From positions 73,260 to 137,259 of the forward strand of contig JAKLIQ010000004.1 in NCBI GenBank assembly GCA_022709525.1: a stretch of 64,000 nucleotides of DNA. Reading direction: 5' to 3'. Below the pieces are notes generated by a model that saw only the letters and a program-made list of their open reading frames with translations, had not been told where the DNA came from and ran no database searches. Below are positions 13,587-64,000 of this stretch, in pieces (positions within the stretch are counted from its first letter, which is position 1; every line of letters begins with the position of its first letter). The position numbers and the translations under genes are program-made. The stretch comes from Candidatus Omnitrophota bacterium. Its GTDB lineage: Bacteria; Omnitrophota; Omnitrophia; Omnitrophales; Aquincolibacteriaceae.

Positions 13587-14527
13587 AAAAAACATGCGTG
13601 ATCACAGGCGGCGGCGGTTTTTTAGGGTCGCACCTCTGCGACCGTTTTTTGCAACGCGGTTGTCGCGTGATCGCGATCGATAATTTTCTGACCGGAAACG
13701 AAAAGAATATTTCCCATTTAAGGAATGATCCCGATTTCAAACTGATCCGCCACGACGTGAGCCGTCCGCTCCGTGTTCCCGGAAGGATCGATCACGTTCT
13801 TCATTTTGCGTCGCCGGCGAGCCCCCTGGATTATCTCCAGTTCCCCATACAAACGTTAAAAGTGGGCGCTCTCGGGACGCACAATGCCCTCGGGCTCGCT
13901 AAAGAGAAAAAAGCGGTATTCCTTCTCGCTTCGACGTCCGAGGTTTACGGCGATCCGCTCGTTCACCCGCAAACGGAATCCTATTGGGGAAACGTCAATC
14001 CCGTGGGCCCCCGGGGTGTTTACGACGAAGCGAAGCGTTATGCCGAAGCCCTGACCATGGCCTATCATCGCAGCCACAAAATGAATACCAAGATCATCCG
14101 CATTTTTAATACTTACGGACCGCGCATGCGCCTTCGCGACGGTCGCGCGATCCCTGCTTTTCTTTCACAAGCGTTAACCGAAAAACCTCTTACTGTGTTC
14201 GGCAGCGGAAAACAAACGCGAAGTCTTTGTTATATCAGCGACATGATCAATGGGATCGAAAAACTTTTATCTTCCAGGATGAACGACCCTGTCAACATCG
14301 GGAACCCGAGCGAAATTTCCATGATGGAGCTTGCGAGAAAGATCATTCAGATCACGGGAAGTTCCAGCAAGATCGTGCGGAAACCTCTTCCGGTCGATGA
14401 CCCTAAGGTCCGCAGGCCCGACATCTCCAAAGCAAAAAAATATCTTTCCTGGACCCCGAAAGTTCCGTTAGATCATGGCCTGCGGCATACGATCGAATAT
14501 TTCAGGGCCGCACTAAGGAGATCCTAA
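13583..14527 (+). CDS. UDP-glucuronate decarboxylase (UDP-xylose synthase)
   Basis: [40 protein letters not shown] and [10 protein letters not shown] motifs closely match the UXS family. Confidence 0.85.
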
Positions 14528-15234
14528 TGGCGATTTATCTTTCAGTGGTGATCCCGGCTTACAACGAAGCGGAACGCTTGCCTCAGACCCTTGATTCGAT
14601 CCTTGGTTTTCTTAAACAGCAGTCCTACGATTCGGAGATCGTTGTTTCCGATGACGGCAGTTCGGATCAAACCGTTCAAGTCGCGGAAGAAAAACTCCGG
14701 GATTTTCCGCACCAAATTCTCAAAACGCCTCGAAACCGTGGTAAAGGACACGCCGTGCGGCAGGGCATGCTGGCAGCGAAAGGGGAATACGTCCTTTTTA
14801 CCGACGCCGACCTTTCGACCCCGATCAGTGAGGTTTTAAGGTTTATCGCTCATCTTCTCAAAGACCAGGATGTGGTGATCGGTTCGCGAGCCCTTCCGGA
14901 ATCTCAAGTGGAGATCCATCAGAATTTCCTTCGAGAAACTATGGGAAAGATCTTCAACCGGATCGCGCGGCTCTGGGCTTTTCAAGGCGTTCATGATTCC
15001 CAATGCGGATTTAAATGCTTTCGCAAAGGCGTCGCCCATGATCTCTTTAGCGCGCAAAAACTGGATGGCTTCAGTTTTGATGTTGAGATCATCTATCTTG
15101 CTCAAAAGCGCGGTTATCGCATCCTGGAGCTTCCGGTCGTGTGGCGAAATTCTCCCAAAAGCCGCGTTCAAGTCCTTCGCGATCCTTTTCTGATGTTCCG
15201 GGATGTCCTAAGGATCCGCAAACTCCATTCATGA
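14527..15234 (+). CDS. GT2 polyprenyl-phosphate sugar synthase (ArnC/GtrB/Dpm1-like)
   Basis: SVVIPAYNE, DDGSSD and a DAD motif. 235 aa, soluble. Confidence 0.8.
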   Translation: MAIYLSVVIPAYNEAERLPQTLDSILGFLKQQSYDSEIVVSDDGSSDQTVQVAEEKLRDFPHQILKTPRNRGKGHAVRQGMLAAKGEYVLFTDADLSTPISEVLRFIAHLLKDQDVVIGSRALPESQVEIHQNFLRETMGKIFNRIARLWAFQGVHDSQCGFKCFRKGVAHDLFSAQKLDGFSFDVEIIYLAQKRGYRILELPVVWRNSPKSRVQVLRDPFLMFRDVLRIRKLHS

Positions 15235-16913
15235 ATAAGGCGTCTTCGCCCCATAGGACTTCACTTGCGATCGCCGGGATCCTGGTCTTAGCGGCCTTTT
15301 TAAGATTATGGGGTGTCGGCTTCGGATTGCCGGACCTTTTCCATGCCGACGAACCTGTGGTCGTCAACCATGCTCTTGCTTTCGGGACCGGCGACCTTAA
15401 CCCACACTTTTTTAATATCCCGCCGCTGGTGAGCTATTTGCTTTTTATTTGTTACGGATGCTATTTTCTGATCGGATCCTTGGCCGGCCTCTTCCATTCA
15501 TTGCGCGATTTTGAGTATCTTTTTTATTTTGACCCCTCCTCTTTTTATTTGATCGCCCGGCTGATCTTCGGCGTCCTGTTTGGCGCCGCTTCCGTCTACG
15601 CGTTTTACCGTCTTGCGCGCCGCCTGGGCGATTCCTCGCTCGGTTTGTGGGCAAGTTTTTTTCTGGCTGTCAACTTCCTTCACGCCAGAGATTCCCACTA
15701 TGTCTATGCGGATATTCCGCTCCTTTTCGCTCTTATTTGCGCCTTCTATCCCATTCTGCGGATATCAGATGAACCCTCCTTTAAAAAATGGCATGTTTTA
15801 GCCGGTTTTTGGATCGGGCTCGCCACGGCAACAAAATACAATGGTGTTTTTCTGGTGATCCCGTATATCTGGATATGCGTCCGGAGCATTTCCTGGAAGA
15901 AATGGCCTGCTCTCTGGAGCTTTGCGTTTCTAACAGCTATTCTTACATTCATCGCGCTCAATCCATTTTCGGTCCTGGATCACGGTTTTTTCTTGAAAGA
16001 AATCTTTGAGCAATCGGCGTCGAATCGCGGGGGATTACCTTGGCATCATCACTTCACTTACTCTCTCGCTGGCGGGATGGGTTGGCCGATGCTTGTGCTG
16101 GCGCTCTGGGGGACCTTGATCGCCCTGTTCCGGGGCGACCGAAAGATCCAAGCAATCGCCATCTTCGCTCTGGCTTATTACGCCGTCCTTTTTTTCTTTG
16201 CCCAGCCCTATGACCGCTACGTCCTTCCGCTCATTCCTTTCGCGCTTTTGCTTGCGGCAAAGGTTTTACTTCAATGGAAGGCGCGTTCCAGTCTTATATT
16301 TTGGGTCCTCATCCCGTTTTTAGTCTTGCCGTCCCTGATCAAGATCATTCATTGGGACAGGATCATGTCGAGACCCGACGTCAGGACCTTGGCTAAAGAA
16401 TGGGTGGAGGCGAACATCCCCGCGGGAAGCCGCCTGGCCCTTGATGGCACGTTTTACATGCCTCGCCTAGCTTTTAGTCCGACGCAACTTGAAGAAAAGA
16501 AAGCAAAAGCCGGAGGCGGCCATCATGGGGAGGTGAAATCCCGCCGCATCGATGCCTTGTTGTCGCGCCCCCGCCATCCTTCCTATGAACTTTATTTTTT
16601 AAACCGCGACCTCGGCGCCAAAGACGCTTTTCTTTTTTCAGAGCCGCGCATTCCATTCGATGTGAGCGCGCTCAAAGAAAATAATATCGAGTATGTATTT
16701 CTTATCGATGGTCTTCATCAGGATGACGATCCGTTCTATCAGACCCTTCAGGACCAAGCCGAGTTGGTCATGATATTTTCGCCCTATCTTGATCAAACGG
16801 ACATGATCATCCGCGATTCCCAGGCCATGACGGGCGGGCCGTTCCTTTGGAGCGATATATTGCCGCGTAAACGAAACGGCTACCCGATCAGCGTTTATCG
16901 CCTCCGTTCGTAA
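15231..16913 (+). CDS. GT-C fold membrane glycosyltransferase (ArnT/PMT_2 family)
   Basis: About 11 transmembrane helices, a HADEP acidic motif in the first periplasmic loop and a C-terminal soluble domain. ATGA overlap with the upstream GT2. Confidence 0.75.
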   Translation: MNKASSPHRTSLAIAGILVLAAFLRLWGVGFGLPDLFHADEPVVVNHALAFGTGDLNPHFFNIPPLVSYLLFICYGCYFLIGSLAGLFHSLRDFEYLFYFDPSSFYLIARLIFGVLFGAASVYAFYRLARRLGDSSLGLWASFFLAVNFLHARDSHYVYADIPLLFALICAFYPILRISDEPSFKKWHVLAGFWIGLATATKYNGVFLVIPYIWICVRSISWKKWPALWSFAFLTAILTFIALNPFSVLDHGFFLKEIFEQSASNRGGLPWHHHFTYSLAGGMGWPMLVLALWGTLIALFRGDRKIQAIAIFALAYYAVLFFFAQPYDRYVLPLIPFALLLAAKVLLQWKARSSLIFWVLIPFLVLPSLIKIIHWDRIMSRPDVRTLAKEWVEANIPAGSRLALDGTFYMPRLAFSPTQLEEKKAKAGGGHHGEVKSRRIDALLSRPRHPSYELYFLNRDLGAKDAFLFSEPRIPFDVSALKENNIEYVFLIDGLHQDDDPFYQTLQDQAELVMIFSPYLDQTDMIIRDSQAMTGGPFLWSDILPRKRNGYPISVYRLRS

Positions 16914-19361: not shown

Positions 19362-20126
19362 TTATGGCTTTTCAGCTCTGTATTTCTTAGAGCAACGATA
19401 CCGCCAGAATTTCAAACCTTCCCAAAGCGCGGATCCCATGATCTTCATATTCACGGAAGATTTTCCCGCCTGGCGGCCCCGGTGGTTCGAAGGGATCTCC
19501 TTGATGCGGAACCCGAGATCGTGGGCCTTGATGATGATCTCGGGTAAAACAAAAAGCGATTTTGAAGTAAGGTCGATCCGGTCTAAAACTTTCCGGCTCC
19601 AGGCCTGCGACCAGTTGTAGTCGTTGATACGGATCTTAAAAAGATAGTTCAATAAAAAGATATAGATCACGGAAAGAAAGAACCGGAAAAGCTGGTAAGC
19701 ATTCCGCTGCCAGCGCACCCCCAATACAATATCCGCTTCGTCGCGTTGGAAGATCTCGACAAAATTGGGGATTTCGGAGGAATCGAATTCTTCATCGGCG
19801 CCGATGTACATCAGATATTTTCCGTGCGATGCGGCAATCCCGTCCTTGAGGGAGTGGGTATAACCTTGATTTTTTTCATGAACAATCAACTGGGTATTCG
19901 GATATTTAGAAATTTCAGTCTGTAGGACCTCCCGAGTTCTGTCTTTACTGCCGTCTTCAATGAGGATGACTTCCCAATTCCATTCCGGGTGAGCGGTTAG
20001 AATGGTGAAGAGATTGGCGAGCATCCGCGCAATATTTTCCTGCTCGTTATAGACCGGCGTGATAAAGCTGATAAATGGCTGGTTGATCATGCGGATTAAA
20101 TTAATGTTTTTTGCTAGGGATGTCAA
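19362..20126 (-). CDS. GT2 family glycosyltransferase
   Basis: SFITPVYNE, EDGSKD and a DxD motif. Confidence 0.8.
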   Translation of the reverse strand: MTSLAKNINLIRMINQPFISFITPVYNEQENIARMLANLFTILTAHPEWNWEVILIEDGSKDRTREVLQTEISKYPNTQLIVHEKNQGYTHSLKDGIAASHGKYLMYIGADEEFDSSEIPNFVEIFQRDEADIVLGVRWQRNAYQLFRFFLSVIYIFLLNYLFKIRINDYNWSQAWSRKVLDRIDLTSKSLFVLPEIIIKAHDLGFRIKEIPSNHRGRQAGKSSVNMKIMGSALWEGLKFWRYRCSKKYRAEKP

Positions 20127-20189: not shown

Positions 20190-21059
20190 GTGCTTATGAG
20201 ACCAGAGGTTAGCGTTATTCTTCCGGCCTATAACGAAGAGGCTGCGATCGGACCCGTAATTGATGCGGTGCAGACTGCCATGAAAGGCTCCCGGTGGTCT
20301 TACGAGATTCTTGTCATCGATGACTGCTCTACAGATCGGACCGCCGAAATCGCCGAAACAAAAAAAGTAAAAGTCATTCGTCGACCGATCAAAGGAGGAT
20401 CGGGCGCATCCCGCCGAACCGGCATACTGTCCGCCGAAGGAGAGATTATTGTTATGCTTGACGCGGACGGCTCCTATGAAGCATCGGACATCCCCAAGCT
20501 TTTGGAGTATTTTCCGATGTATGATCAGGTCAACGGTGCCCGAACCAGCGAGCAAGGAACTTTGAAGATCTTAAGAGCTCCGGCTAAATGGCTTATCCGA
20601 AGCCTGGCATGCTATTTAACAAACACTCATATCCCGGATCTTAATACCGGTCTCAAGGCCTTCAAGAAAGATATTATGAAAAAATACCTCTGGGTTCTGC
20701 CTAACGGGTTTTCCTGCGTCACGACCATGACGCTGGCTTTTCTGACGAACGGTTACGCTGTCAAATACGTCCCGACGACTTATCACAAGCGCATCGGAAA
20801 ATCTAAATTCCATCCCGTCAAAGACACGCTCGCGTATATTAAAACAGTGATCCGTATGGTGATGTATTTTAAGCCCTTGCGGGTTTTCATGCCTGCCGCT
20901 GGTTTTATTTTTGCTCTTGGGATCGTAAAATCCATCTGGAGTTTTAGCGCTACCAATACGCTTCAAGAATCGGATATCATTATTTTTATGGCCGCGATCA
21001 TGCTCACATTCCTCGGATTGATAAGCGATCTGATCGCGACTTATCAAAACCGTTCCTAG
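20190..21059 (+). CDS. GT2 polyprenyl-phosphate sugar synthase with C-terminal TM helices (GtrB/CsbB-like)
   Basis: SVILPAYNE, DDCSTDRT and a DAD motif. Two C-terminal transmembrane helices, typical of GtrB/CsbB. Confidence 0.8.
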   Translation: MLMRPEVSVILPAYNEEAAIGPVIDAVQTAMKGSRWSYEILVIDDCSTDRTAEIAETKKVKVIRRPIKGGSGASRRTGILSAEGEIIVMLDADGSYEASDIPKLLEYFPMYDQVNGARTSEQGTLKILRAPAKWLIRSLACYLTNTHIPDLNTGLKAFKKDIMKKYLWVLPNGFSCVTTMTLAFLTNGYAVKYVPTTYHKRIGKSKFHPVKDTLAYIKTVIRMVMYFKPLRVFMPAAGFIFALGIVKSIWSFSATNTLQESDIIIFMAAIMLTFLGLISDLIATYQNRS

Positions 21060-34150: not shown

Positions 34151-34158
34151 GGGGTTCC

Positions 34159-37759: not shown

Positions 37760-37760
37760 C

Positions 37761-48063: not shown

Positions 48064-48064
48064 G

Positions 48065-49003: not shown

Positions 49004-49020
<17 letters not shown>
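48736..49020 (+). CDS. Excisionase/MerR-type helix-turn-helix DNA-binding protein (94 aa)
   Basis: LLKVSPSTMMRMIKNGLIGAAKVGKQYRI has the HTH_17/Xis-family pattern. Confidence 0.55.
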
Positions 49021-51898
<2,878 letters not shown>

Positions 51899-51899
51899 T

Positions 51900-52976: not shown

Positions 52977-52977
52977 T

Positions 52978-53748: not shown

Positions 53749-53749
53749 C

Positions 53750-54379: not shown

Positions 54380-54380
54380 T

Positions 54381-55103: not shown

Positions 55104-55773
55104 GATCCTCGTAGTGGCCGCACACCCGGATGACGAAATCCTGGGTTGCGGCGGAACAATAGCGCGCTTGTCAAAGGAAGGGCATGAAGTGCATATTCTC
55201 ATTTTAGGGGAGGGCGCAACCTCTCGCGACCAATCCCGGAATATCGCAAAACGAAGTGCCGCGCTTAAAAAACTCCGGCTTTCCGCGGAAAAAGCCGCAA
55301 AGGTCTTGGGGGCGTGTCGTGTTCATTTCCATGACTTTCCGGATAATCGTTTTGACAGTGTCGCCTTGCTTGATATTGTAAAAGCGGTCGAGCAGGTCAA
55401 AGAAAAAATTCGTCCTTCGATAATTCTGACGCATTTTGCACATGATCTTAATATCGATCATCAAAAGACCTTTAAAGCGGTATTGACGGCCACGCGGCCG
55501 ATGAAAAACGAAACCGTGAGAGCCGTTTATTCCTTCGAAATTCTTTCCTCTACCGAATGGCAGTACGCACACCCTTTTCCGGCGGATACTTTCATGGATA
55601 TTTCGGACTTCTTCGCCCGCAAACTTAGAGCATTAAAGGAATATGCGCAGGAAATGAGAGGGCCGGACCATCCGCGCTCATCCCGAGGAGTAACGCTTAA
55701 TGCGGAACTTTGGGGGCTTAAGACGGGGACTCAATACGCGGAAGCATTACAACTAGTGAGGCAGATCATTTAA
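55075..55773 (+). CDS. PIG-L/LmbE-family N-acetylglucosaminyl deacetylase
   Basis: ILVVAAHPDDEILGCGGT metal-binding motif and an HxxH region. AAGGAG site upstream. Overlaps the upstream gene by 29 nt. Confidence 0.8.
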   Translation: MINLSSRKHKILVVAAHPDDEILGCGGTIARLSKEGHEVHILILGEGATSRDQSRNIAKRSAALKKLRLSAEKAAKVLGACRVHFHDFPDNRFDSVALLDIVKAVEQVKEKIRPSIILTHFAHDLNIDHQKTFKAVLTATRPMKNETVRAVYSFEILSSTEWQYAHPFPADTFMDISDFFARKLRALKEYAQEMRGPDHPRSSRGVTLNAELWGLKTGTQYAEALQLVRQII

Positions 55774-55775
55774 AT

Positions 55776-56840
55776 ATGAAAAAAACTTTAAAGATCGGAC
55801 ACAAGATCGTCGGAGAAGGGCGGCCGGTATTTTGTATTGCCGAACTCTCGGCGAACCATCTGCAGAATTACGGACTCGCGGTTAAAATGGTCCGCGCCGC
55901 AAAAAGGGCGGGAGCAGACGCCGTAAAGGTGCAAACCCTCACGCCGGACACCATGACCCTGGATTGCCATAACCAACACTTCCGGATTAAGGGAAACACG
56001 CCGTGGGATGGCCAAACCTATTACCAGCTTTACAGTCAGACCTGCATGCCGTGGGCCTGGCATCAAAAACTCGCGCGACTGGCGAAATCGCTCGGGCTCG
56101 TTTTTTTCTCTACGCCCTATGACACAAGCTCTTCCGATTTTCTTGCAAAACTCAAAATGCCAGCCTACAAGATCGCGTCGTTCGAATTAACCGACATCCC
56201 TTTCATCCGGCATGTCGCAAAAAAGAAAAAGCCGATGTTGATGTCCACCGGGATCGCTACGCTCGCGGAGATCGATGACGCCATCCGCGCTTGCCGATCT
56301 GCCGGAAACTCAAAACTGATCCTTTTAAAATGCACCTCGATGTATCCTACCCCGTTGACCGAATTGAACCTGCGCCATATTCAAGAACTCCGTAAGCATT
56401 ACGGCGCTTTGGTCGGTCTTTCCGACCACACGCTGGACTCGTCGGTCTCTGTAGCCGCGGTAGCGCTCGGGATCTGTGTGATCGAAAAACACTTCACATT
56501 GGATCGGAAGCTGGGGGGGCCGGACGCCGCCTTTTCTATGGAGCCGCATGAATTCAAAGAAATGGTCCGCTTGATCCGGAAAACGGAAGCCATGCTGGGA
56601 GAGAAACGTTTCCGCTTGAGCGCCTCGGTGAAAAAGAACCGTCAATTTTGCCGTTCGCTTTTTGCAGTCCAGGATATCAAGCGCCATGAACGCTTTTCTC
56701 CGAAAAATATCCGTTCGATACGCCCAGGATCCGGGCTTCCGCCGAAATATTACGATTTCATATTGAAAAAAAAGGCAGGCAAGGACATCCGCCGGGGAAC
56801 ACCCCTGGCTTGGTCCATGATCTCAACCCGAACTCATTAA
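55776..56840 (+). CDS. pseI: Pseudaminic acid synthase (NeuB family with C-terminal SAF domain)
   Basis: GEGRPVFCIAELSANH, KVQT and SDHT motifs of the NeuB/PseI family. 354 aa. Confidence 0.85.
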   Translation: MKKTLKIGHKIVGEGRPVFCIAELSANHLQNYGLAVKMVRAAKRAGADAVKVQTLTPDTMTLDCHNQHFRIKGNTPWDGQTYYQLYSQTCMPWAWHQKLARLAKSLGLVFFSTPYDTSSSDFLAKLKMPAYKIASFELTDIPFIRHVAKKKKPMLMSTGIATLAEIDDAIRACRSAGNSKLILLKCTSMYPTPLTELNLRHIQELRKHYGALVGLSDHTLDSSVSVAAVALGICVIEKHFTLDRKLGGPDAAFSMEPHEFKEMVRLIRKTEAMLGEKRFRLSASVKKNRQFCRSLFAVQDIKRHERFSPKNIRSIRPGSGLPPKYYDFILKKKAGKDIRRGTPLAWSMISTRTH

Positions 56841-56853
56841 CCCGGAGGTTACC

Positions 56854-57927
56854 GTGACAAAAGTCAACGAACAAAAGATCACCACCAATCCTTTTTATCA
56901 CTATCAAGACTTGTGGAAATCCGAAAATTTCAAAAAATGGGAAGCGGAACAGTCGGATGAATTCAAAAAATACCGTCGATTATGGCAAGAATGCCCGCGC
57001 CTGCGGAAAGCGCCTCCGGCCCCGATCAGCATCAATCTTGAATTGACGGATGTTTGTAATGCCGGCAATAAGCCTTGCATCATGTGCCCGAAATGGTTCC
57101 TGAAACCCCATAATCAATTCATGGCCTATGAAGATGCGGTTCGCGTTCTTGATGAAGCGAGATCGCTCGGCGTCTACGCCGTAAACTTGAACGGGGCCGG
57201 AGAATCGCTCTTGCATAAGGATTTCCCGAAAATCGTTCAATATGCCCGAAAAATCGGCTTTCTGGATGTGATGGTTCACACGAATGGAACGATGCTGACC
57301 CGTGAAATGTCGGAAAAGCTGATCGACGCGGGCCTGACGCGCCTCATCGTTTCGGTGGATTCGCACATTCCGGAGATCTACCAGACCATCCGACCCAATT
57401 TTAAATTTTCGACGGTCTATCAGAACGTAAAAAATTTTATCGCCGTCCGCGACCAGAAAGGGAAGCGCGAGCCTATTTTGCGTTTGACCATGGTCGTTAT
57501 GAAACACAATGTCGATACTATCAAAGACACGATCAAGTTCTGGTCCTTCGCCGATTACATCACGATCAATGATTGTATGTACTTTGACGATTTTAAGGTC
57601 TTTGATTTCGATAAGCAGAAAATCAACAGCGAGGCGAAACAAAAAGGCCTTATCTACGCCTGCGCGCCGCTTTATCAGCAGCTAACGGTAACGATCGACT
57701 TCAAGATCATCTCTTGCAGCACCATTTACGCAAAAAACTACAAGATCCTTGGCCATTACGGCAAACAATCACTCAAAGAGGCCTGGGAGGGAAGAGAGCT
57801 TGCCGAAATGCGCAAAGCTCACGAAAGCGGGCGCTGCACCGACATCCCATGCTGCGAAAAATGCGATCTTCCCCAGATTGAACTTTTGAAAAAGATTCGT
57901 GAACAAGATGGAGTAATGCTGCGCTAG
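56854..57927 (+). CDS. Radical SAM-like protein with unusual CX6CX2C cluster motif and C-terminal Cys-rich region
   Basis: ELTDVCNAGNKPCIMCPKW, with C-terminal CTDIPCCEKC. GTG start preceded by GGAGG. Confidence 0.65.
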   Translation: MTKVNEQKITTNPFYHYQDLWKSENFKKWEAEQSDEFKKYRRLWQECPRLRKAPPAPISINLELTDVCNAGNKPCIMCPKWFLKPHNQFMAYEDAVRVLDEARSLGVYAVNLNGAGESLLHKDFPKIVQYARKIGFLDVMVHTNGTMLTREMSEKLIDAGLTRLIVSVDSHIPEIYQTIRPNFKFSTVYQNVKNFIAVRDQKGKREPILRLTMVVMKHNVDTIKDTIKFWSFADYITINDCMYFDDFKVFDFDKQKINSEAKQKGLIYACAPLYQQLTVTIDFKIISCSTIYAKNYKILGHYGKQSLKEAWEGRELAEMRKAHESGRCTDIPCCEKCDLPQIELLKKIREQDGVMLR

Positions 57928-57936: not shown

Positions 57937-59649
57937 ATGCCGGCTCTTATCGAGAAAAATATAATGAGCACAAAAAAGGTCGCCATCCTGGAAACAAAAG
58001 CGCAAGCGGACTTTTTCTGCGCCCAACGGCAAGCCCAGGAGTTTTCACGTGTTGCGATTTTCTTTCCTAAGCGGTTCATTCGCGCCGCCTCCGCCTGGCC
58101 GCTCGCTTACGAAGATGGCTATACGGACAACCGACATCTTTACCGTCAACAAATGGTGCTCTGCCGCTACGTCCAAGATCTATGCCGCGATCTCGTCGGA
58201 ATCCATCCCGATCTGATCGTTAACGGCATTAATCTACTCAATTGTTTTTTTAGGGATCTCTTTTATTTCGTTTATGCTCTATACCGAAACGAAAAGTTCT
58301 TCCACGCTTTTCTCGAAAAAGAGCGCTTTGAGCGAGCTGTGATCCTTAAAGAAAAATTCCAGACCGCGGAAAATAATCCCTTGAATCAACACTTTGAGGA
58401 ATTCTGCCATCGAGAAAGGATCCCGACAGATATCCTCGAACTACCGCTTAAGAAAAAAAATCCAGACAAAAACGCCGATTCGGATTTATTGAAAAAAATC
58501 TTAAATTTTCTCACGCGATTGCGTTACAGGACCGGCCCGCAAACCCTTCTGGCTATGAAAGATTCTTTGTTTTTTCTCTTGGCAGATACGATGCGAGGTC
58601 AGGCACTTGCGGCTTTCCCTTCTAAGGTCAATTACCGACGTTTTTTTGAATATTTTTCGCGCGACATTCAAATCCATCATCTCATTAAAACTGCCATCCC
58701 TGAACAAAAACCACTGCTACCTTTCGAGCTCCCCGAACCAAGGATTGATAATGTGGTCATACCGCTTCGCTCAGAGCTTTTTCGCCGTTTCATTTCTGAA
58801 AAAGCAGCCTTGGTTCGAAGTATTTTACCGTCACTTTCCGATTTTTTAATCCGGAGCAAACCGGAAAAAATCATTCTTGATGAAGATATGACCGTGATCG
58901 CTCGCACTTTAGCGTTGCTGGCGCGAAAAAACCGAATTCCCACTACCGTCGTCCAACATGGTTCTTTGATCCGAGAAGATGCAGCGCCCGGCTTCTTTCC
59001 CCTCGAAGCCGACAAATTGGTCGTTATGGATAAGATGATTCATCGTGAACTATGCGACATTATTCCTTCAGAACGGATGGAGATTAATGACTATGGTTAT
59101 TTCAATAATTTGACCACCTACGCCGGCCCAGCCCGCTCAACTGCACTGCTAAAACAACATGGCCTCGAATCCCAAAAATATATCCTTGTTATCAATCCGA
59201 ACAATAAATGGACCGGCATGCGCGGCATTCCGATCCGTCATATGACGCCGGCGGTCTATGAACGCTTCCTGGAAGGACTTTTGTCCCTTGTTCAGCGATT
59301 CCCGAAAATGATTTTTGCTCTCAAATTAAGGCCCGGCGATCTCGCGCCTGAAAAATATGCTTACTTGGACGCGGATTTTCAAAAACTCCCTAATTTCCAT
59401 CTCGTCGCGGGAAATCAAGAAGCGGCATGGGGACTTTTAGCCACCGCTTCTTGCGTGATCTCACCCGTATGGTCAACCGCCGTGGTTGAAGCGATAAAAT
59501 TGAACCGGCCCGTTTTTTTCTGGGATCTGCAGGAAGCTTACGAAAAACTCGATAGCCTGTTGCTTGATCCTAACTTTCATCGCGTCAAAACAAAAGAGGA
59601 GCTTGAATCCGCCCTCTTAAAACTGTCGGCTAATGAGATCTTTCGATGA
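57937..59649 (+). CDS. Hypothetical protein (570 aa); possible GT-B/capsule-synthesis-like transferase
   Basis: The C-terminal third resembles GT-B/TagF/KpsS-type C-domains (VISPVWSTAVVEAIKLNRPVFF). No definitive motif. Confidence 0.45.
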   Translation: MPALIEKNIMSTKKVAILETKAQADFFCAQRQAQEFSRVAIFFPKRFIRAASAWPLAYEDGYTDNRHLYRQQMVLCRYVQDLCRDLVGIHPDLIVNGINLLNCFFRDLFYFVYALYRNEKFFHAFLEKERFERAVILKEKFQTAENNPLNQHFEEFCHRERIPTDILELPLKKKNPDKNADSDLLKKILNFLTRLRYRTGPQTLLAMKDSLFFLLADTMRGQALAAFPSKVNYRRFFEYFSRDIQIHHLIKTAIPEQKPLLPFELPEPRIDNVVIPLRSELFRRFISEKAALVRSILPSLSDFLIRSKPEKIILDEDMTVIARTLALLARKNRIPTTVVQHGSLIREDAAPGFFPLEADKLVVMDKMIHRELCDIIPSERMEINDYGYFNNLTTYAGPARSTALLKQHGLESQKYILVINPNNKWTGMRGIPIRHMTPAVYERFLEGLLSLVQRFPKMIFALKLRPGDLAPEKYAYLDADFQKLPNFHLVAGNQEAAWGLLATASCVISPVWSTAVVEAIKLNRPVFFWDLQEAYEKLDSLLLDPNFHRVKTKEELESALLKLSANEIFR

Positions 59650-61157
59650 CATCACGCGGTACGGTTAAAACACGCGTTTTTAAAGATACGGCGATCTATT
59701 CTGTCGCCAATTACATCGCGCAGGGGATCGGCGTTATCAACAGCATTATTCTCCGACAGTTCATGGGCCCACAAGCCATGGGGGTTTGGAGCGTGCTTCA
59801 GGTGATCTTGGGTTATTGCGGCTATGCTAGCATGGGAACAACGCGAGCGATGGCGCGAGATTATCCGTTGCTCCGTGGACGCGGAGATTTTGAAAAAGCT
59901 GAAAAAATGAAGAATCTTACGCTGACCTTCAGCATGGTTATGTCGATCATTCCGGCGCTGCTCCTCGCAGGCTACGCGATTTTTAAAAGCGGGTCCCTTG
60001 AGCGATCCTTTTTGATCGGTATCCTTTTTCTGGTCTTTTTCCTTTTTATTCAACGCTTCTACGATTTTGTACTGACCCTATTGCGGACCGAAAAGAAATT
60101 TAACCTTCTTAGCGGCATTGTGGTCATTAATGCCGTCGTCGGTCTTATCGTAACTCTGACTTTCGTAAAATTCTGGAACATCTACGGACTTCTAGCCGGC
60201 ACTTTTGTTACGACTATGCTGTTGATCTTTGTGATTTTCCGCTATGACGCCTACGATTTTAAGTTTTTCTGGCATCTTCCAAGCATTTGGAGCGAATTGA
60301 AGCTAGGGGTCCCTCTCGTTGGATCGGCTTTTCTTCTGACCATTCTATCGGGGATCGATAAACTTATTATCGCTAAAAAGCTCGGATTTTATGACGCCGG
60401 TCTCTATTCCATCGCAATGATGTGCAGTAATTATATCTTCACCCTTCCGATGATGTTCTCTCATGTCGTGTACCCGAACCTCATGGAATCCTTCGGCAAG
60501 ACCGGTGATTCACGTCAGGTGCTGGGATATCTAACCAAACCCATCCTTGTTTTTTCGGTGATGGTCCCATTCTTCTGCGGGCTAGCGATCTTCCTCATGC
60601 CAATCATCACTCAATTGTTCCTGCCGAAATTTATTCCGGGGCTACCTGCGATGGCTATCTACCTGATCGGCATTTATTTCATGCTGATGGGACAATTCGC
60701 CAACAATTACTTGGTAGCACTGGATAAATATTTGATCACTATTCCCATCTTAGGAGTAGCGATCGCCATAAATTACTTTTTAGGCCTTTTTTTGATCCAT
60801 TTAGGGTGGGGGATCTCCGGCGTCGCTCTTTCCACGGTTTTCGCTTACGCAGCCTACGGCATCATGACTTTCATCGCCGCTCTTCTCAAAGCCATGACCC
60901 CGAGAGAAAGCGTCATTACCATTTTGGAGAATTTAGCCCTTTTCATTTTGTATTTTACCGGCATCCTGTTCTTGGACCGGTATCTGAAATTGGACAATCT
61001 CTATATGACGGCGGGATTGAAATGCTTCGGCCTGGTCTTATACGCGCTGCCTTTTTGCAGGATCCTTGAAAAGAAAACGGGGGTCATCTCCACGCTCCTT
61101 TTGACAAAAAAAATCCATTTTGAAAAAAACCCGGAACTCGACGATCAGGGAGCATGA
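59646..61157 (+). CDS. wzx: Oligosaccharide flippase (Wzx; MOP superfamily polysaccharide biosynthesis protein)
   Basis: 503 aa, ~14 transmembrane helices, with the N-terminal pattern typical of PST-family flippases. Confidence 0.8.
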   Translation: MTSRGTVKTRVFKDTAIYSVANYIAQGIGVINSIILRQFMGPQAMGVWSVLQVILGYCGYASMGTTRAMARDYPLLRGRGDFEKAEKMKNLTLTFSMVMSIIPALLLAGYAIFKSGSLERSFLIGILFLVFFLFIQRFYDFVLTLLRTEKKFNLLSGIVVINAVVGLIVTLTFVKFWNIYGLLAGTFVTTMLLIFVIFRYDAYDFKFFWHLPSIWSELKLGVPLVGSAFLLTILSGIDKLIIAKKLGFYDAGLYSIAMMCSNYIFTLPMMFSHVVYPNLMESFGKTGDSRQVLGYLTKPILVFSVMVPFFCGLAIFLMPIITQLFLPKFIPGLPAMAIYLIGIYFMLMGQFANNYLVALDKYLITIPILGVAIAINYFLGLFLIHLGWGISGVALSTVFAYAAYGIMTFIAALLKAMTPRESVITILENLALFILYFTGILFLDRYLKLDNLYMTAGLKCFGLVLYALPFCRILEKKTGVISTLLLTKKIHFEKNPELDDQGA

Positions 61158-62307: not shown

Positions 62308-63720
62308 ATGATTATTTGGAACGCGTTTTATAAATATTTCCTTGAGCGAGGAAACACCCCTAAATATATCGCCCTCGGGATACTCATCGGACTTTTTCTT
62401 TTTAAACGATGGGGGATATCGGAATGGTGCCGGACTCATTTTTCAAAAATCTCCCAGAAAAAATGGCTTTTGCTCATCCTGGTCATCGGATTCTTGCTGC
62501 GTTTAGCATGGATCTTCTGGTCCCCGTATAGTCCTCCGGCGGCAGGGACCGAGGACTACGTCATGATCCGGCATGCTCAAGACCTTGTTGCGGGTAACGG
62601 CTATGTCACAACCGAAGGCGCTCCAAGCGCAGACCGTCCGATCGGATACGCCATTCTACTCGCCGGGATCTTTAAAGCGTTCGGAGAGAATCTTGATTGG
62701 GTGGCTCTTATGAACGCCTTTTTAAGCCTCGTCACGATCTGGCTTGTCTACCGGCTGGGTCTTTTGTTAAAAAATGAGCTCGTCGGGTTGCTGGCTGCGT
62801 TTTTTGTTGCGATCTATCCGACATCCATTTTCGCCTCACGGATCGTTCTGGAAGAGCATGTTTTTATCCCGATGTGGCTTGGGGGGATTTATCTTCTGAT
62901 CCGAGATTATCAAAATCCGTCCTGGAAAAAACTAATTGGCGCGGGACTTCTTTTTGGGATCGGTGCCCATATGCGGACTTTCTCCTTCGCTATGGGACTA
63001 GTGGTTTTCCTGATGTGGTTGTTCGCTAAAAAGAAACCTGGGCAGGCGATCCTGCGGGCGCTGATAATCCAGGCGATCATTTTGATCTTCGCGGTGCCCT
63101 GGGCGATTCGCAATCAACAAAAACTCGGCGAGCCGGTCCTTTACACAACTTGGATCGGAGCCGCGCTCTATTTCTCCAATAACGATACGAGCGATGTCCG
63201 CTATCCCATCAATCCTACGCGTGAACAAGGCGGGGATCTGGCCTTTTCAAAAGCACAAACAGAGATTGAAAGGAATCGCGCTGGAAAAAATGCCGCTTTT
63301 GAATGGATAAAAACACATCCTGTCACTTTCTTGCAAAAAGCTATTGGCCGTCTCATTTATATGCTTGGTCTTACGCGGGAAGGCTGGACCGTGACCGATA
63401 ACTTCAACACCATTAAAGCCGGCCGAACACGCCCCTCCGACAAGGCGATCAAAAAACTCAATAAGGCGGACAATGATTATTATGGGACCATTTTTCTTCT
63501 CGCGGTCTTTGGAACGATCATTTTTCTCCTTCCAGGAGAAATGCGCTCGCATCAGGCCGGGATCGGTTATCTGTTTCTAACATTAGCCTATTATTTTTCG
63601 ATCATTGCCCTCACAATGGGACACCGAAAATATCGCTTTGCGATAGAACCGTTTTTCTGCCTGTTGGCGGCTTATGGCATTTCCTTTTTCTTTACACCTC
63701 CTAAACGCATCGAGTCGTGA
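62308..63720 (+). CDS. GT-C fold membrane glycosyltransferase (PMT_2/ArnT-like)
   Basis: Polytopic membrane protein with an acidic motif (TEDY) in the first periplasmic loop. Confidence 0.65.
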   Translation: MIIWNAFYKYFLERGNTPKYIALGILIGLFLFKRWGISEWCRTHFSKISQKKWLLLILVIGFLLRLAWIFWSPYSPPAAGTEDYVMIRHAQDLVAGNGYVTTEGAPSADRPIGYAILLAGIFKAFGENLDWVALMNAFLSLVTIWLVYRLGLLLKNELVGLLAAFFVAIYPTSIFASRIVLEEHVFIPMWLGGIYLLIRDYQNPSWKKLIGAGLLFGIGAHMRTFSFAMGLVVFLMWLFAKKKPGQAILRALIIQAIILIFAVPWAIRNQQKLGEPVLYTTWIGAALYFSNNDTSDVRYPINPTREQGGDLAFSKAQTEIERNRAGKNAAFEWIKTHPVTFLQKAIGRLIYMLGLTREGWTVTDNFNTIKAGRTRPSDKAIKKLNKADNDYYGTIFLLAVFGTIIFLLPGEMRSHQAGIGYLFLTLAYYFSIIALTMGHRKYRFAIEPFFCLLAAYGISFFFTPPKRIES

Positions 63721-63726
63721 TCTTTT

Positions 63727-64000
63727 ATGGAACAAAACCGAAAATTGAAAATCTCACTTTTTATCCCGGTCTATAACGCGTTCGCTTATATCCCGCACGC
63801 CCTTAACGAATCCTACCGGGCGCTTTCTGAATGCTGCGAAGCCTTCGAAATCGTGGTTGTCGATGATAATTCGAACGATCAAACTGCCTCTTTCCTGCAA
63901 AACATTGAGCAGGCGCAATACCCGCAGGATAAAAGAATACGCGTCGTTAAAAACACAACAGGCCCTTCGCGACGCGAAAACCTGGCAACTGCTTTTGCTT
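63727..64000 (+). CDS. GT2 family glycosyltransferase (3'-truncated at window end)
   Basis: LFIPVYNA and VVDDNSNDQT motifs. Runs off the window. Confidence 0.75.
   Translation, partial: MEQNRKLKISLFIPVYNAFAYIPHALNESYRALSECCEAFEIVVVDDNSNDQTASFLQNIEQAQYPQDKRIRVVKNTTGPSRRENLATAFA

What the first reader, a model, noticed from the sequence alone, without database searches (positions are those of the whole stretch)
14527..64000. Exceptional density of polyprenyl-phosphate GT2 synthases and GT-C transferases
Within ~50 kb there are six GT2 genes of the Dpm1/ArnC/GtrB type (14527, 19362 on the minus strand, 20190, 28425, 44170, 63727). There are also at least six GT-C-type polytopic transferases (15231, 23615, 26947, 29270, 62308 and probably 42309 on the minus strand), often as adjacent GT2/GT-C pairs.
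This implies several different lipid-linked monosaccharide donors used for periplasmic glycosylation. Possible targets are LPS/lipid A, an S-layer, or protein O-glycosylation of the PMT type. Such a glycan-heavy envelope is unusual for a single locus.
Basis: partly seen in the sequence, partly recalled or inferred. Interest (0 to 1): 0.55.

Follow-up and report, generated by a model that had tools for sequence, protein, structure and literature searches.

The report
Omnitrophota envelope-glycosylation locus rich in GT-C enzymes
A stretch of an uncultured Omnitrophota genome packs six lipid-sugar-donor synthases and six membrane transferases, with up to three more transferases just past the window, so the cell probably builds or decorates a surface glycan outside the cytoplasmic membrane; the machinery is a known kind, its density is unusual, and the same density recurs in relatives.

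Summary
All six GT2 genes pass Pfam PF00535. Five of them are most similar in the PDB to DPMS and ArnC. For 63727 this needed the full-length copy from the same organism. The sixth, 44170, is ambiguous by sequence. It is tied by conserved synteny to a GT-C.

All six polytopic proteins are GT-C enzymes, not transporters. Four pass Pfam PMT_2, one of them by only 0.1 bit. 23615 belongs to the YfhO family and carries a fused C-terminal methyltransferase. 42309c founds a rare family with no Pfam model. Predicted structures of the last two match only GT-C structures.

The window comes from a Candidatus Omnitrophota MAG. The locus runs about 10 kb beyond the window. That stretch adds one PMT_2 protein, one DUF2079 protein and a distant 42309c relative. 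It also adds two GT2 genes that do not look DPMS-like.

Related Omnitrophota loci carry the same gene sets, so the density is a lineage trait. The best reading is several multi-component transmembrane glycosylation systems. They sit beside dTDP-rhamnose, pseudaminic-acid, heptose-derivative and phosphoramidate-like pathways. Donor sugars, flippases and acceptors are inferred, not shown.

Verdict: new members of a known kind, of moderate interest.

The parts
9589..14527 (+).
   Evidence: Pfam. RmlB scores 437.7 bits on TIGR01181, above its cutoff of 365. The 13583 SDR could not be assigned to a specific reaction.
14527..15234 (+). GT2_14527: 235 aa, no TM helix, DPMS/ArnC-like candidate polyprenyl-P-sugar synthase.
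   Evidence: PF00535 109 bits. Best PDB hits are 5mlz DPMS at 9e-18 and ArnC at 1.5e-14. Carries a DAD motif and 'DSQCGFKCFRK'. No TM helix.
15231..16913 (+). GTC_15231: 560 aa, PMT_2-type GT-C, translationally coupled to GT2_14527 through an ATGA overlap.
   Evidence: PMT_2 47.8 bits and PMT 40.9 bits. 9 TM peaks. H38-A-D40-E41 after TM1 is invariant in 3 orthologues. The overlap is seen.
19362..20126 (-). GT2_19362c: 254 aa, ArnC/DPMS-like GT2, the only one without an adjacent GT-C.
   Evidence: PF00535 97 bits. Best PDB hits are ArnC at 7e-14 and DPMS at 4e-13, both over the full length. The DXD motif is reduced to GAD-EE.
20190..21059 (+). GT2_20190: 289 aa with two C-terminal TM helices (GtrB/ArnC/AglJ architecture). 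First gene of a cassette conserved across phyla.
   Evidence: PF00535 92 bits. NCBIfam AglJ 118 bits and dolichyl-P-hexose transferase 98 bits, both below their cutoffs. PDB hits DPMS 6e-14 and ArnC 2e-11. TM helices at 232-250 and 263-281. 71% identical to its counterpart in L008.
21083..22699 (+). unk538: 538-aa protein of unknown function, apparently cytoplasmic. Middle gene of the GT2-unk538-flippase-like cassette.
   Evidence: No Pfam family. At least 1842 homologues in several phyla, all annotated hypothetical. The same three-gene order occurs in L008, L024 and L025.
22624..23625 (+). MprF-flippase-domain homologue (LPG_synthase_TM). Candidate flippase for a polyprenyl-P-sugar; this role is inferred.
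   Evidence: PF03706 159 bits. TIGR00374 'flippase-like domain' 94 bits, above its cutoff of 43.
23615..26944 (+). YfhO-family GT-C (aa 1-800) fused to a cytoplasmic SAM methyltransferase (aa ~807-1109).
   Evidence: Homologues are 770-800 aa, and 31 of 45 hit Pfam YfhO. AF2 gives pLDDT >90 for residues 10-800. The Foldseek top 9 are all GT-C, led by AftD at 1.3e-5. Methyltransf_23 77 bits. The C-terminal part is homologous to a free-standing 306-aa gene in L013, E 2e-54.
26947..28428 (+). GTC_26947: 493 aa, borderline PMT_2 GT-C, with a 4-nt overlap onto GT2_28425.
   Evidence: PMT_2 26.2 bits against a gathering score of 26.1. Its L009 orthologue (E 3e-37) carries an unmarked PMT_2 hit. No conserved acidic residue was found after TM1.
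28425..29141 (+). GT2_28425: 238 aa, no TM helix. The clearest Dpm1-type synthase in the window.
   Evidence: PF00535 110 bits. PDB 5mlz DPMS at 1.8e-38, 136 bits, over residues 1-222. DAD motif. Orthologues lie next to GT-C sets in L009 and L013.
29270..31066 (+). GTC_29270: 598 aa, PMT_2-type GT-C.
   Evidence: PMT_2 31.4 bits and PMT 23.7 bits. 9 TM peaks. D126 is invariant in 3 orthologues.
31077..36577 (+). Phosphoramidate-like precursor module: PPDK-like kinase, gamma-glutamyl-CDP-amidate-hydrolase-like GATase, nucleotidyltransferase, cmk, and a 6-TM CDP-alcohol-phosphotransferase-like protein.
   Evidence: NF004508 953 bits, above its cutoff of 501. NF045546 187.5 bits, E 2.8e-55, below its cutoff of 250. 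Pfam families.
36770..42302 (+). Heptose-derivative pathway: epimerase, domain-permuted HldE-like protein, GmhA-like SIS protein, radical SAM/SPASM enzyme and a split transketolase.
   Evidence: Pfam and NCBIfam. 69-88% identical and syntenic in L005.
42309..44033 (-). GTC_42309c: 574 aa, founding member of a rare GT-C family with no Pfam model.
   Evidence: No Pfam hit. AF2 pLDDT 83.5, pTM 0.85. The Foldseek top 16 are all GT-C, led by ArnT 5f15 at 7.6e-5. G28, P30, D32, F33 and D36 after TM1 are invariant. Only 116 clusters at 50% identity among 1.84 billion proteins.
44170..44916 (+). GT2_44170: 248 aa, divergent GT2, syntenic partner of the 42309c family.
   Evidence: PF00535 76 bits over the N-terminal half. 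The best PDB hit covers the N-terminal half only; the longest alignments are to DPMS at 5e-7 (residues 4-230) and ArnC at 1e-4 (residues 4-179). DXD is degenerate, PGDNE. Orthologues lie beside 42309c homologues in L005, L006, L014 and L016.
47545..48583 (+). sm172a and sm172b: two 172-aa proteins with 2-3 N-terminal TM helices and a soluble C-terminal part. Conserved partners of 42309c and 44170.
   Evidence: TM prediction. No Pfam hit. Homologues next to 42309c-type genes in L005, L006, L014 and L016.
48968..57927 (+). Pseudaminic-acid pathway: PseC, PseB, a CMP-sugar synthetase, PseG, two formyltransferases, WbqC, PIG-L, PseI and a radical SAM/SPASM enzyme.
   Evidence: NCBIfam PseC 513, PseB 507, PseG 205 and PseI 457 bits, all above their cutoffs. 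Pfam families.
59646..61157 (+). Wzx/MOP-type flippase. It may flip a lipid-linked oligosaccharide, or the donor for the 62308/63727 pair.
   Evidence: Polysacc_synt_3 45 bits and Polysacc_synt 34.5 bits. 10 TM peaks.
62308..63720 (+). GTC_62308: 470 aa, PMT_2-type GT-C.
   Evidence: PMT_2 55.5 bits. 8 TM peaks.
63727..64000 (+). GT2_63727, truncated by the window. The full gene is 256 aa and DPMS/ArnC-like.
   Evidence: PF00535 46 bits for the fragment. The full length comes from L021, the same organism (1 mismatch in 11.7 kb). Best PDB hits are DPMS at 8.9e-12 and ArnC at 2e-9. Carries DVD and 'DHQCGLKVFRR' motifs.

Best explanation
The window is part of a chromosomal envelope-glycan locus of at least about 65 kb in a Candidatus Omnitrophota bacterium. 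The organism is a diderm; an LptD gene lies 5 kb upstream.

The locus encodes several multi-component transmembrane glycosylation systems. These are the GtrABC, ArnC/E/F/T and CsbB/GtcA/YfhO kind of system.

Proposed mechanism:
1. On the cytoplasmic face, small DPMS/ArnC-like GT2 enzymes load a sugar from a nucleotide sugar onto polyprenyl phosphate. Pathways for dTDP-rhamnose, UDP-glucuronate, a heptose derivative and CMP-pseudaminic acid are encoded alongside.
2. The lipid-linked monosaccharide is flipped across the membrane. Candidate flippases are the MprF-flippase-like protein at 22624 and the Wzx-like protein at 59646.
3. Polytopic GT-C enzymes transfer the sugar to an envelope acceptor on the periplasmic face. 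There are six in the window and up to three more just downstream.

Shown here: the family and fold of every GT2 and GT-C, the gene pairing, and the recurrence of the same modules in other genomes.

Inferred: that the GT2 products are polyprenyl-P-sugars, which sugar each one carries, which proteins flip, and the acceptor.

The likeliest acceptor is LPS or another surface polysaccharide. It is possibly built stepwise in the periplasm, because relatives carry several GT-Cs per GT2.
For: - GT2 identity.
- GT-C identity.
- Coupled gene pairs.
- Conserved modules in other Omnitrophota. These include the four-gene set 42309c + 44170 + sm172a + sm172b. They also include the set 15231-like + YfhO + 29270-like + 26947-like + 28425-like.
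- Flippase-like proteins.
- Sugar pathways in the same gene strings.
- Organism and diderm status.
- The general scheme (GT-A synthase, flippase, GT-C; PMT_2 and YfhO types; GT-Cs without any Pfam domain; GacJ-type small partners; Wzx- or MATE-type flippases) is described in PMC8035078 and PMC11127046.
- No GT4/GT1-type Leloir transferase occurs between 10 and 64 kb. This fits periplasmic rather than cytoplasmic glycan extension.
Against: - No biochemical evidence exists, and every assignment is by homology.
- No GtrA-type or ArnE/F-type flippase was found.
- 44170 and 19362c have degenerate DXD motifs.
- 26947 is borderline for PMT_2 and shows no conserved acidic loop residue.
- The PMT_2 proteins have no detectable sequence similarity to any solved GT-C.
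- No initiating phosphoglycosyltransferase, Wzy polymerase or WaaL ligase lies in the window, so the acceptor pathway is not visible.
- The GT2-unk538-flippase-like cassette also occurs in Patescibacteria, which are generally regarded as lacking an outer membrane (own knowledge). That cassette's acceptor is therefore unlikely to be LPS-specific.
Confidence: 0.75

Rival explanations
1. The GT-C enzymes are protein O-glycosyltransferases of the PMT, TMTC or streptococcal kind. They would glycosylate Ser/Thr-rich regions of secreted, S-layer or giant surface proteins, and would not act on LPS or polysaccharide.
For: - 15231 and 29270 also pass the Pfam PMT model PF02366, at 40.9 and 23.7 bits against a gathering score of 22.7.
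- GT2_28425 is very close to a Dol-P-Man synthase.
- Omnitrophota are reported to encode many giant surface-associated proteins (bioRxiv 10.64898/2026.06.07.730766).
- The GT2-unk538-flippase-like cassette with a PMT/PMT_2 GT-C occurs in Patescibacteria, which are generally regarded as lacking LPS (own knowledge).
Against: - No MIR or TPR domains were found in any of the GT-Cs.
- PMT_2 scores exceed PMT scores.
- The locus is embedded in typical polysaccharide-type sugar pathways with a Wzx flippase, and lies near lptD.
- No acceptor protein gene is evident.
Confidence: 0.15
2. The small GT2s are ordinary Leloir transferases that extend an Und-PP-linked repeat unit in the cytoplasm. The GT-Cs work independently, for example with donors made elsewhere, so the adjacency reflects only co-location in a glycan island.
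For: - NCBIfam gives no GT2 a score above any family cutoff, and several non-synthase GT2 families score similarly.
- For 44170 the best PDB match is a generic GT2, 3bcv.
- Two further GT2s downstream look conventional.
Against: - Five of the six have DPMS or ArnC as best PDB hit. For 28425, 19362c and 20190 the best-scoring alignment also reaches the post-catalytic region, about residue 222-238.
- 4-nt start/stop overlaps join GT2 and GT-C genes.
- GT2/GT-C synteny is conserved across divergent genomes while the flanking genes change.
- 20190 has the two-TM C-terminus of the GtrB/ArnC type.
Confidence: 0.07
3. The apparent density is an assembly or binning artefact, in which glycan islands from several organisms were joined into a chimeric contig.
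For: - GC content drops from about 0.53 to about 0.47 near 20 kb.
- The source is a metagenome.
Against: - The same sequence was assembled independently in several samples and by several pipelines (Logan, ENA, JGI, NCBI), with 0-1 mismatches across 11.7 kb.
- The contig is 188 kb long.
- Related MAGs show the same gene orders.
- Lower GC in surface-glycan loci is usual (own knowledge).
Confidence: 0.02

Closest known systems
Multi-component (three-component) transmembrane glycosylation systems. Examples: GtrA/GtrB/GtrC for O-antigen glucosylation, CsbB/GtcA/YfhO and GtlA/GtcA/GtlB for teichoic acids, GacI/J/K/L for the group A carbohydrate (PMC8035078), and the PPPRS/MATE/GT136 systems (PMC11127046).
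   Same: - A small GT-A/GT2 synthase is encoded next to a polytopic GT-C.
- The GT-Cs are of the PMT_2 type, the YfhO type, or have no Pfam domain.
- Flippase candidates include non-GtrA types such as Wzx/MOP.
- TM-less GT2s sit with small membrane partner proteins, as GacI does with GacJ.
   Different: - Six, and possibly nine, GT-Cs lie in one locus, against one to three pairs per whole genome in the reviewed organisms.
- No GtrA homologue is present.
- An MprF-flippase-domain protein sits in the flippase position.
- One YfhO is fused to a methyltransferase.
- Relatives have more GT-Cs than GT2s.
Arn pathway: ArnC, ArnE/ArnF and ArnT, which modify lipid A with L-Ara4N.
   Same: - GT2s with ArnC among their best structural relatives.
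- The four-gene module of GT2 + two small membrane proteins + GT-C parallels ArnC/E/F/T in composition.
- A UDP-glucose dehydrogenase and an SDR lie upstream of the 14527/15231 pair.
   Different: - No sequence similarity of the GT-Cs to ArnT at E<=0.1.
- The small proteins have 2-3 TM helices plus a soluble domain, unlike the four-TM SMR-like ArnE/F.
- No ArnA, ArnB or ArnD set lies beside the pair.
- The sugar pathway next to the four-gene module is heptose-based.
Polyprenyl-P-mannose-dependent periplasmic or luminal assembly. Examples: mycobacterial Ppm1 with PimE, MptA, MptB and MptC, and the AftA-D/Emb enzymes; ER Dpm1 with ALG3/9/12 and the PMTs.
   Same: - A TM-less Dpm1-like synthase (28425; 1.8e-38 to Pyrococcus DPMS).
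- It lies beside several different GT-Cs, a set conserved in L009 and L013.
- The 23615 model is closest to AftD and AftA.
   Different: - The organism is an Omnitrophota diderm with LptD.
- None of the GT-Cs belongs by sequence to the mycobacterial GT87, GT53 or GT85 families as far as tested.
- No GDP-mannose pathway lies in the window.
- The acceptor is unknown.
Campylobacter jejuni capsule decoration genes: Cj1415-Cj1418 for the O-methyl-phosphoramidate precursor, plus the heptose and pseudaminic-acid pathways (PMC11800397, PMC6429109).
   Same: - A PPDK-like kinase, a GATase closest to the gamma-glutamyl-CDP-amidate hydrolase family (E 2.8e-55) and a nucleotidyltransferase lie in a row.
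- Complete PseB/C/G/I genes and a heptose pathway sit in the same locus.
   Different: - The hydrolase score (187.5 bits) is below the NCBIfam cutoff of 250.
- No APS-kinase-like Cj1415 is present; a bona fide cmk sits in its place.
- A CDP-alcohol-phosphotransferase-like membrane protein follows, instead of Cj1421/1422-type transferases.
- Direct homology to Cj1418 was not tested.

Membership tests
GT2 polyprenyl-phosphate glycosyl synthases (Dpm1/DPMS, ArnC, GtrB type) | GT-A fold GT2 catalytic domain | tested here: met
   PF00535 is above the gathering score for all six: 109, 97, 92, 110, 76 and 46 bits.
GT2 polyprenyl-phosphate glycosyl synthases (Dpm1/DPMS, ArnC, GtrB type) | Closer to solved DPMS, ArnC or GtrB than to other GT2 structures, with the alignment reaching past the catalytic core | tested here: inconclusive
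DPMS or ArnC is the best PDB hit for five. Values: 28425 (1.8e-38, residues 1-222), 14527 (9e-18, 4-207), 19362c (7e-14, 19-226), 20190 (6e-14, 6-226) and full-length 63727 (8.9e-12, 6-180). The best-scoring stretches of 14527 and 63727 stop nearer the end of the catalytic core. For 14527 a chondroitin synthase is a close second at 2.5e-16. Not met for 44170: its best hit is the generic 3bcv over the N-terminal half, with DPMS at only 5e-7.
GT2 polyprenyl-phosphate glycosyl synthases (Dpm1/DPMS, ArnC, GtrB type) | DXD metal-binding motif | tested here: inconclusive
   DAD or DVD in 14527, 20190, 28425 and 63727. Reduced to GAD-EE in 19362c and to PGDNE in 44170.
GT2 polyprenyl-phosphate glycosyl synthases (Dpm1/DPMS, ArnC, GtrB type) | Membrane attachment through C-terminal TM helices or a small membrane partner | tested here: inconclusive
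   20190 has two C-terminal TM helices. 14527, 28425 and 63727 have none, as in Dpm1/Ppm1. 19362c and 44170 each show one hydropathy peak inside the catalytic region, probably not a TM helix. 44170 is syntenic with the two small membrane proteins sm172a/b.
GT2 polyprenyl-phosphate glycosyl synthases (Dpm1/DPMS, ArnC, GtrB type) | Product is a polyprenyl-monophosphate sugar | not testable with these tools
   Needs an enzyme assay.
GT-C glycosyltransferase superfamily | Polytopic membrane protein with 8 or more TM helices | tested here: met
   7-9 hydropathy peaks by a crude Kyte-Doolittle scan. The AF2 models of 42309c and 23615 show helical bundles.
GT-C glycosyltransferase superfamily | Match to a GT-C clan sequence family | tested here: met
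   PMT_2 at or above the gathering score for 15231, 29270 and 62308, and marginally for 26947. 23615 qualifies only through its homologues, 31 of 45 of which hit YfhO. 42309c has no family hit.
GT-C glycosyltransferase superfamily | GT-C fold | tested here: met
   Tested for the two proteins that lack a Pfam hit. 42309c: the Foldseek top 16 are all GT-C, including ArnT, DPY19, STT3/PglB, AftA and Pmt4. 23615: the top 9 are all GT-C, including AftD, DPY19, AftA, PglB and Pmt. TM-scores are modest, 0.3-0.45. The four PMT_2 proteins were not modelled.
GT-C glycosyltransferase superfamily | Conserved acidic (DxD-like) motif in the first extracytoplasmic loop | tested here: inconclusive
   Present in 42309c (D32, D36 invariant in 18 sequences) and 23615 (D42 invariant in 45). 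Also present in 15231 (D40-E41) and 29270 (D126), each from only 3 sequences. None was seen in 26947. 62308 was not examined.
ArnT (GT83, lipid A L-Ara4N transferase) | Sequence similarity to ArnT, plus an adjacent Arn pathway (ArnA, ArnB, ArnD) | tested here: not met
   phmmer of 15141, 29270 and 62308 against all PDB chains gave no hit at E<=0.1. No ArnA/B/D set lies beside any pair. Only the fold of 42309c resembles ArnT.
PMT (GT39, protein O-mannosyltransferase) | PF02366 match plus luminal MIR domains | tested here: not met
   PF02366 scores: 15231 40.9, 29270 23.7 and 62308 21.5 bits, against a gathering score of 22.7. No MIR domain was detected. There was no PDB hit to Pmt1, Pmt2 or Pmt4 by sequence.
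YfhO family (PF09586) | Match to the YfhO profile | tested here: inconclusive
   The window protein itself gives no PF09586 hit even at E<=5. Of 45 aligned homologues, 31 hit, with a best E of 3.6e-36. Identity to those homologues is 22-46% over about 70% of the query.
Gtr-type three-component system | GtrA-family small flippase encoded with the pair | tested here: not met
   No GtrA family hit in any ORF of 100 aa or more between 10 and 64 kb. ORFs shorter than 100 aa were not scanned. The flippase-position genes are LPG_synthase_TM and Wzx-like.

The most novel reading that the evidence does not exclude
Omnitrophota assemble a major envelope glycan largely in the periplasm. An array of up to nine GT-C enzymes would be fed by a few polyprenyl-P-sugar donors, in the manner of mycobacterial LM/LAM/arabinan or ER-lumen assembly. 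The machinery would include:
- a previously unrecognised GT-C family (42309c and unk555);
- a four-gene GT2 + two-anchor + GT-C module that loads an unusual heptose-derived sugar;
- an MprF-like protein acting as a polyprenyl-P-sugar flippase, within a cassette shared with Patescibacteria and other phyla.
Probability: 0.2. Interest if true: 0.7.

Novelty: new member of a known kind. Interest (0 to 1): 0.42.

Why it matters
Omnitrophota are widespread, uncultured and often very small bacteria. Some are thought to live attached to other cells or to prey on them, so their surface chemistry probably governs those contacts. It is unknown.

This locus gives concrete and testable candidates:
- a set of Dpm1/ArnC-like synthases;
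- at least six GT-C transferases, one of a family with no existing profile;
- a YfhO-methyltransferase fusion;
- a GT2-unknown-MprF-like cassette that is conserved across several phyla and uncharacterised.

If the MprF-like protein flips polyprenyl-P-sugars, it would add a flippase type to these systems. For genome annotation, the 42309c family and its distant relative unk555 are currently labelled hypothetical and would be missed by profile-based GT-C counts.

Tried and rejected
- **Sequence searches of the PMT_2-type GT-Cs against the PDB.** 15141, 29270 and 62308 gave nothing at E<=0.1. A YfhO-family profile also gave nothing at E<=1. An ArnT, PMT or Emb assignment by sequence was therefore not possible.
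- **NCBIfam on the GT2s and GT-Cs.** No hit reached a family cutoff, so no equivalog name can be given.
- **Relaxed Pfam scan at E<=5.** sm172a, sm172b, unk538, unk570, 42309c and the YfhO part of 23615 gave nothing usable.
- **Profiles of the 42309c and YfhO families against all locus proteins.** No significant cross-hits appeared. Only profile-profile comparison linked unk555 to the 42309c family.
- **Pfam scan of ten remote 42309c relatives.** No family was found, apart from one faint PMT_2 hit.
- **Literature searches.** Nothing was found on Omnitrophota glycosyltransferases, or on a role of LPG_synthase_TM proteins with GT2/GT-C.
- **Transporter identity for the polytopic proteins.** Rejected, because transporters appear only at Foldseek probabilities of 0.2 or less.
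- **Assembly chimera.** Rejected.
- **Arn pathway for 14527/15231.** The 13583 SDR could not be assigned as a UDP-GlcA decarboxylase or 4-epimerase.
- **Paper PMC5938751** (nucleoside diphosphoramidate biosynthesis) is not held.

Full report
**Gene map.** The window is gene-dense and almost entirely on the plus strand. I translated 57 ORFs and scanned them against Pfam and NCBIfam.

Upstream of the finding lie rpoN, accD, an ABC ATPase, two GGDEF genes and lptD at 7186-9540. Next come UDP-glucose dehydrogenase, rmlA, rmlB, rmlD and an SDR. From 14.5 kb to the window end nearly every gene concerns glycan synthesis. The one exception is a 2-oxoacid:ferredoxin oxidoreductase operon at 16984-19333. 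GC content falls from about 0.53 to about 0.47 near 20 kb.

**Source.** The window's RpoN is identical to HOW87463.1, 'MAG TPA: Candidatus Omnitrophota bacterium', on a 188-kb contig. The same DNA was assembled independently in Logan, ENA and JGI data with 0-1 mismatches. The locus is therefore not a chimera.

**The six GT2 genes.** All six pass PF00535. NCBIfam gives no equivalog. Its hit lists are headed or heavily populated by polyprenyl-phosphate synthase families: ArnC, PpgS, AglJ, dolichyl-P-hexose transferase and PgfS.

Against all PDB sequences:
- 28425 matches Pyrococcus DPMS at 1.8e-38 over residues 1-222.
- 14527, 20190 and full-length 63727 have DPMS first and ArnC close behind.
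- 19362c has ArnC first, then DPMS, over its full length.
- 44170 is the exception. Its best hit is a generic GT2 over the N-terminal half. DPMS (5e-7) and ArnC (1e-4) are its only long alignments.

Other features:
- Motifs. 14527, 20190, 28425 and 63727 carry DAD or DVD, followed by a D-x-x-x-G-(F/L/Y)-x-x-(F/Y)-(K/R)-(K/R) stretch. 19362c (GAD-EE) and 44170 (PGDNE) are degenerate.
- Membrane helices. 20190 has two C-terminal TM helices. 14527, 28425 and 63727 have none. 19362c and 44170 each show one hydropathy peak inside the catalytic region.
- Paralogy. The six are old paralogues, 22-29% identical.

**The six polytopic proteins.**
- 15231, 29270 and 62308 pass PMT_2. 26947 passes by 0.1 bit in its 493-aa form. 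Its orthologue in L009 has a clear PMT_2 hit.
- 23615 has about 90 homologues. Most are 770-800 aa, several are named YfhO by NCBI, and 31 of 45 aligned ones hit Pfam YfhO. Its model has pLDDT above 90 for residues 10-800. The nine best Foldseek/PDB matches are AftD, DPY19, AftA, PglB and Pmt proteins.
- 42309c has only 17 close homologues, none with a Pfam domain, and all that carry a name are from Omnitrophota. Its model (pLDDT 83.5, pTM 0.85) matches ArnT, DPY19, STT3/PglB, AftA and Pmt4 in the top 16 positions. Transporters appear only at probability 0.2 or less.

Acidic residues are conserved just after the first TM helix:
- D32/D36 in 42309c;
- D42 in 23615;
- D40-E41 in 15231;
- D126 in 29270.

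26947 shows none.

**A rare GT-C family.** A profile of the 42309c family finds only 116 clusters at 50% identity among 1.84 billion proteins, and 42 at E<=1e-30. Ten remote members have no Pfam family. A scan of 185,579 species genomes returned nine loci. All are Omnitrophota or unnamed MAGs.

**The locus is larger than described.** A contig from the same organism (L021) shows what follows GT2_63727:
- a UDP-GlcNAc 2-epimerase-like gene and a GT4;
- a DUF2079 membrane protein;
- a 10-TM protein, unk555;
- a 654-aa PMT_2 protein;
- two conventional-looking GT2s.

unk555 aligns to the 42309c profile over 412 columns (hhalign probability 77%, E 2e-5). It shares the GLP-x-x-D-x-x-D and IK-x-K-x-x-E-x-x-LP motifs. 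One YfhO homologue also hits DUF2079, which hints that the two families are related. The tally is thus up to nine GT-Cs and six DPMS-like GT2s in about 60 kb.

**Comparison with relatives.**
- L008 has GT2_14527-like, GT2_20190-like (71% identity), unk538, LPG_synthase_TM, 15231-like GT-C, a sulfatase, YfhO and Wzx in one string.
- L009 lies on a 2.17-Mb contig beside ATP synthase and enolase genes. It has a Pfam-less 550-aa relative of 42309c. It also has 15231-like, YfhO, 29270-like and 26947-like GT-Cs, one 28425-like GT2, and then Pse genes.
- L013 has 42309c-like, 26947-like, 28425-like, a free methyltransferase, 29270-like and YfhO.
- L005, L006, L014 and L016 place a 42309c homologue next to a 44170-like GT2 and to homologues of the two 172-aa proteins. 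L005 adds the same heptose-pathway genes at 69-88% identity.

The density is therefore typical of this lineage. Some relatives have several GT-Cs per GT2.

**Fusion.** Residues 807-1109 of 23615 are homologous over their whole length to a separate 306-aa methyltransferase gene that sits among the GT-C genes of L013 (E 2e-54). A weaker match exists in L009. The last TM helix (774-792) is followed by a basic stretch, so the methyltransferase should be cytoplasmic. This gene fusion ties the methyltransferase functionally to the YfhO-type enzyme.

**Flippase candidates and partners.** No GtrA family hit was found among ORFs of 100 aa or more. 22624 is a strong LPG_synthase_TM/TIGR00374 'flippase-like' protein. 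It always follows GT2_20190-like and unk538 genes. That triad is also present in a Yanofskybacteria (Patescibacteria) contig beside a PMT/PMT_2 GT-C, and in a Tectimicrobiota genome. 59646 is Wzx-like.

The two 172-aa proteins could be a flippase pair. More likely, given their 2-3 TM helices plus a soluble domain, they are anchors or activators of the TM-less GT2. GacJ plays that role for GacI (PMC8035078), and DPM2/3 for DPM1 (own knowledge).

**Sugar supply.**
- rmlA, rmlB and rmlD are present. RmlB is above its NCBIfam cutoff.
- A complete pseudaminic-acid core is present: PseB, PseC, PseG and PseI, all above cutoff. It comes with two formyltransferases, WbqC and PIG-L.
- A heptose module comprises a GmhA-like protein, a domain-permuted HldE-like protein and an epimerase. 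A radical SAM/SPASM enzyme and a split transketolase accompany it.
- No GT4/GT1-type transferase occurs between 10 and 64 kb.

[quoted passage not shown] GT2 synthases make polyprenyl-P-sugars, a flippase moves them, and GT-Cs transfer them outside the membrane. Family and fold assignments, pairing and synteny are shown. Donors, flippases and acceptors are inferred.

LPS or another surface polysaccharide is the likeliest acceptor, given lptD, Wzx and the sugar pathways. Protein O-glycosylation cannot be excluded. The cross-phylum triad argues that at least one module is not LPS-specific.

**Verdict.** 'Exceptional' holds against model organisms, which have three pairs per genome in B. subtilis or L. 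lactis (PMC8035078). It does not hold within Omnitrophota.

The parts are new members of known kinds. Four points deserve follow-up:
- the Pfam-less GT-C family;
- the YfhO-methyltransferase fusion;
- the GT2-unk538-MprF-like cassette;
- the four-gene 42309c module.

Noticed in passing
window 31077-36577: A gene row resembling the Campylobacter jejuni phosphoramidate (MeOPN) precursor pathway. It comprises an 813-aa PPDK_N + PEP-utilizers protein (NF004508, 953 bits) and a GATase closest to the gamma-glutamyl-CDP-amidate hydrolase family (NF045546, E 2.8e-55, below cutoff). It also has an NTP_transf_3 nucleotidyltransferase, a bona fide cmk and a 6-TM CDP-alcohol-phosphotransferase-like protein. 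This would be a phosphoramidate-type glycan decoration outside Campylobacter.
   Followed up: partly
window 23615-26944 (aa 807-1109); L013 10671-11588; L009 5565-6482: A YfhO-type GT-C is fused to a SAM methyltransferase with an N-terminal Cys-rich stretch. Among about 90 homologues the fusion is seen only in this organism. In relatives the methyltransferase is a separate neighbouring gene.
   Followed up: yes
window 20190-23625; L008 2509-5956; L024 6116-9517; L025 6121-9546: A three-gene cassette: a GT2 of about 290 aa (two C-terminal TM helices in the window copy), a 530-545-aa protein of unknown function with at least 1842 homologues, and an LPG_synthase_TM flippase-like protein. It is conserved in Omnitrophota, Patescibacteria and Tectimicrobiota. 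unk538 homologues alone also occur in Hydrogenedentota and Sumerlaeota/BRC1. A GT-C or an unassigned large protein often lies next to it. It is uncharacterised as far as I could find.
   Followed up: partly
window 36770-42302; L005 15922-21457: A heptose-type module with a domain-permuted HldE-like protein (nucleotidyltransferase at aa 18-171, PfkB kinase at aa 202-499). It also has a GmhA-like SIS protein, a radical SAM/SPASM enzyme and a split transketolase. It is 69-88% identical in another Omnitrophota MAG and suggests a chain-extended or rearranged heptose. No GmhB-like phosphatase was seen.
   Followed up: no
window 16984-19333: A 2-oxoacid:ferredoxin oxidoreductase alpha/beta/gamma operon (GC about 0.55) sits in the middle of the glycan genes. 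It separates GT2_14527/GTC_15231 from GT2_20190, which are contiguous in L008. It looks like a rearrangement or insertion.
   Followed up: no
window 57937-59649: A 570-aa soluble protein with no Pfam or NCBIfam hit lies between the pseudaminic-acid genes and the Wzx-like flippase. It is a candidate Pse transferase or other GT-B-like enzyme.
   Followed up: no
window 52978-55773: Two formyltransferase-like genes, one with the N-formyltransferase C-terminal dimerisation domain, plus WbqC and PIG-L deacetylase genes, lie inside the Pse cluster. No PseH-type acetyltransferase was seen. This suggests an N-formylated or otherwise re-acylated pseudaminic acid.
   Followed up: no
L021 12199-21276 (same organism, downstream of the window end): The locus continues with Epimerase_2, GT4, DUF2079 (551 aa), a 10-TM protein distantly related to the 42309c family, a 654-aa PMT_2 protein and two more GT2 genes.
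   Followed up: partly
window 4380-9540: Two diguanylate cyclase (GGDEF) genes, one with a GAF domain and one membrane-anchored, lie directly upstream of lptD and the glycan locus. This hints at c-di-GMP control of envelope functions.
   Followed up: no
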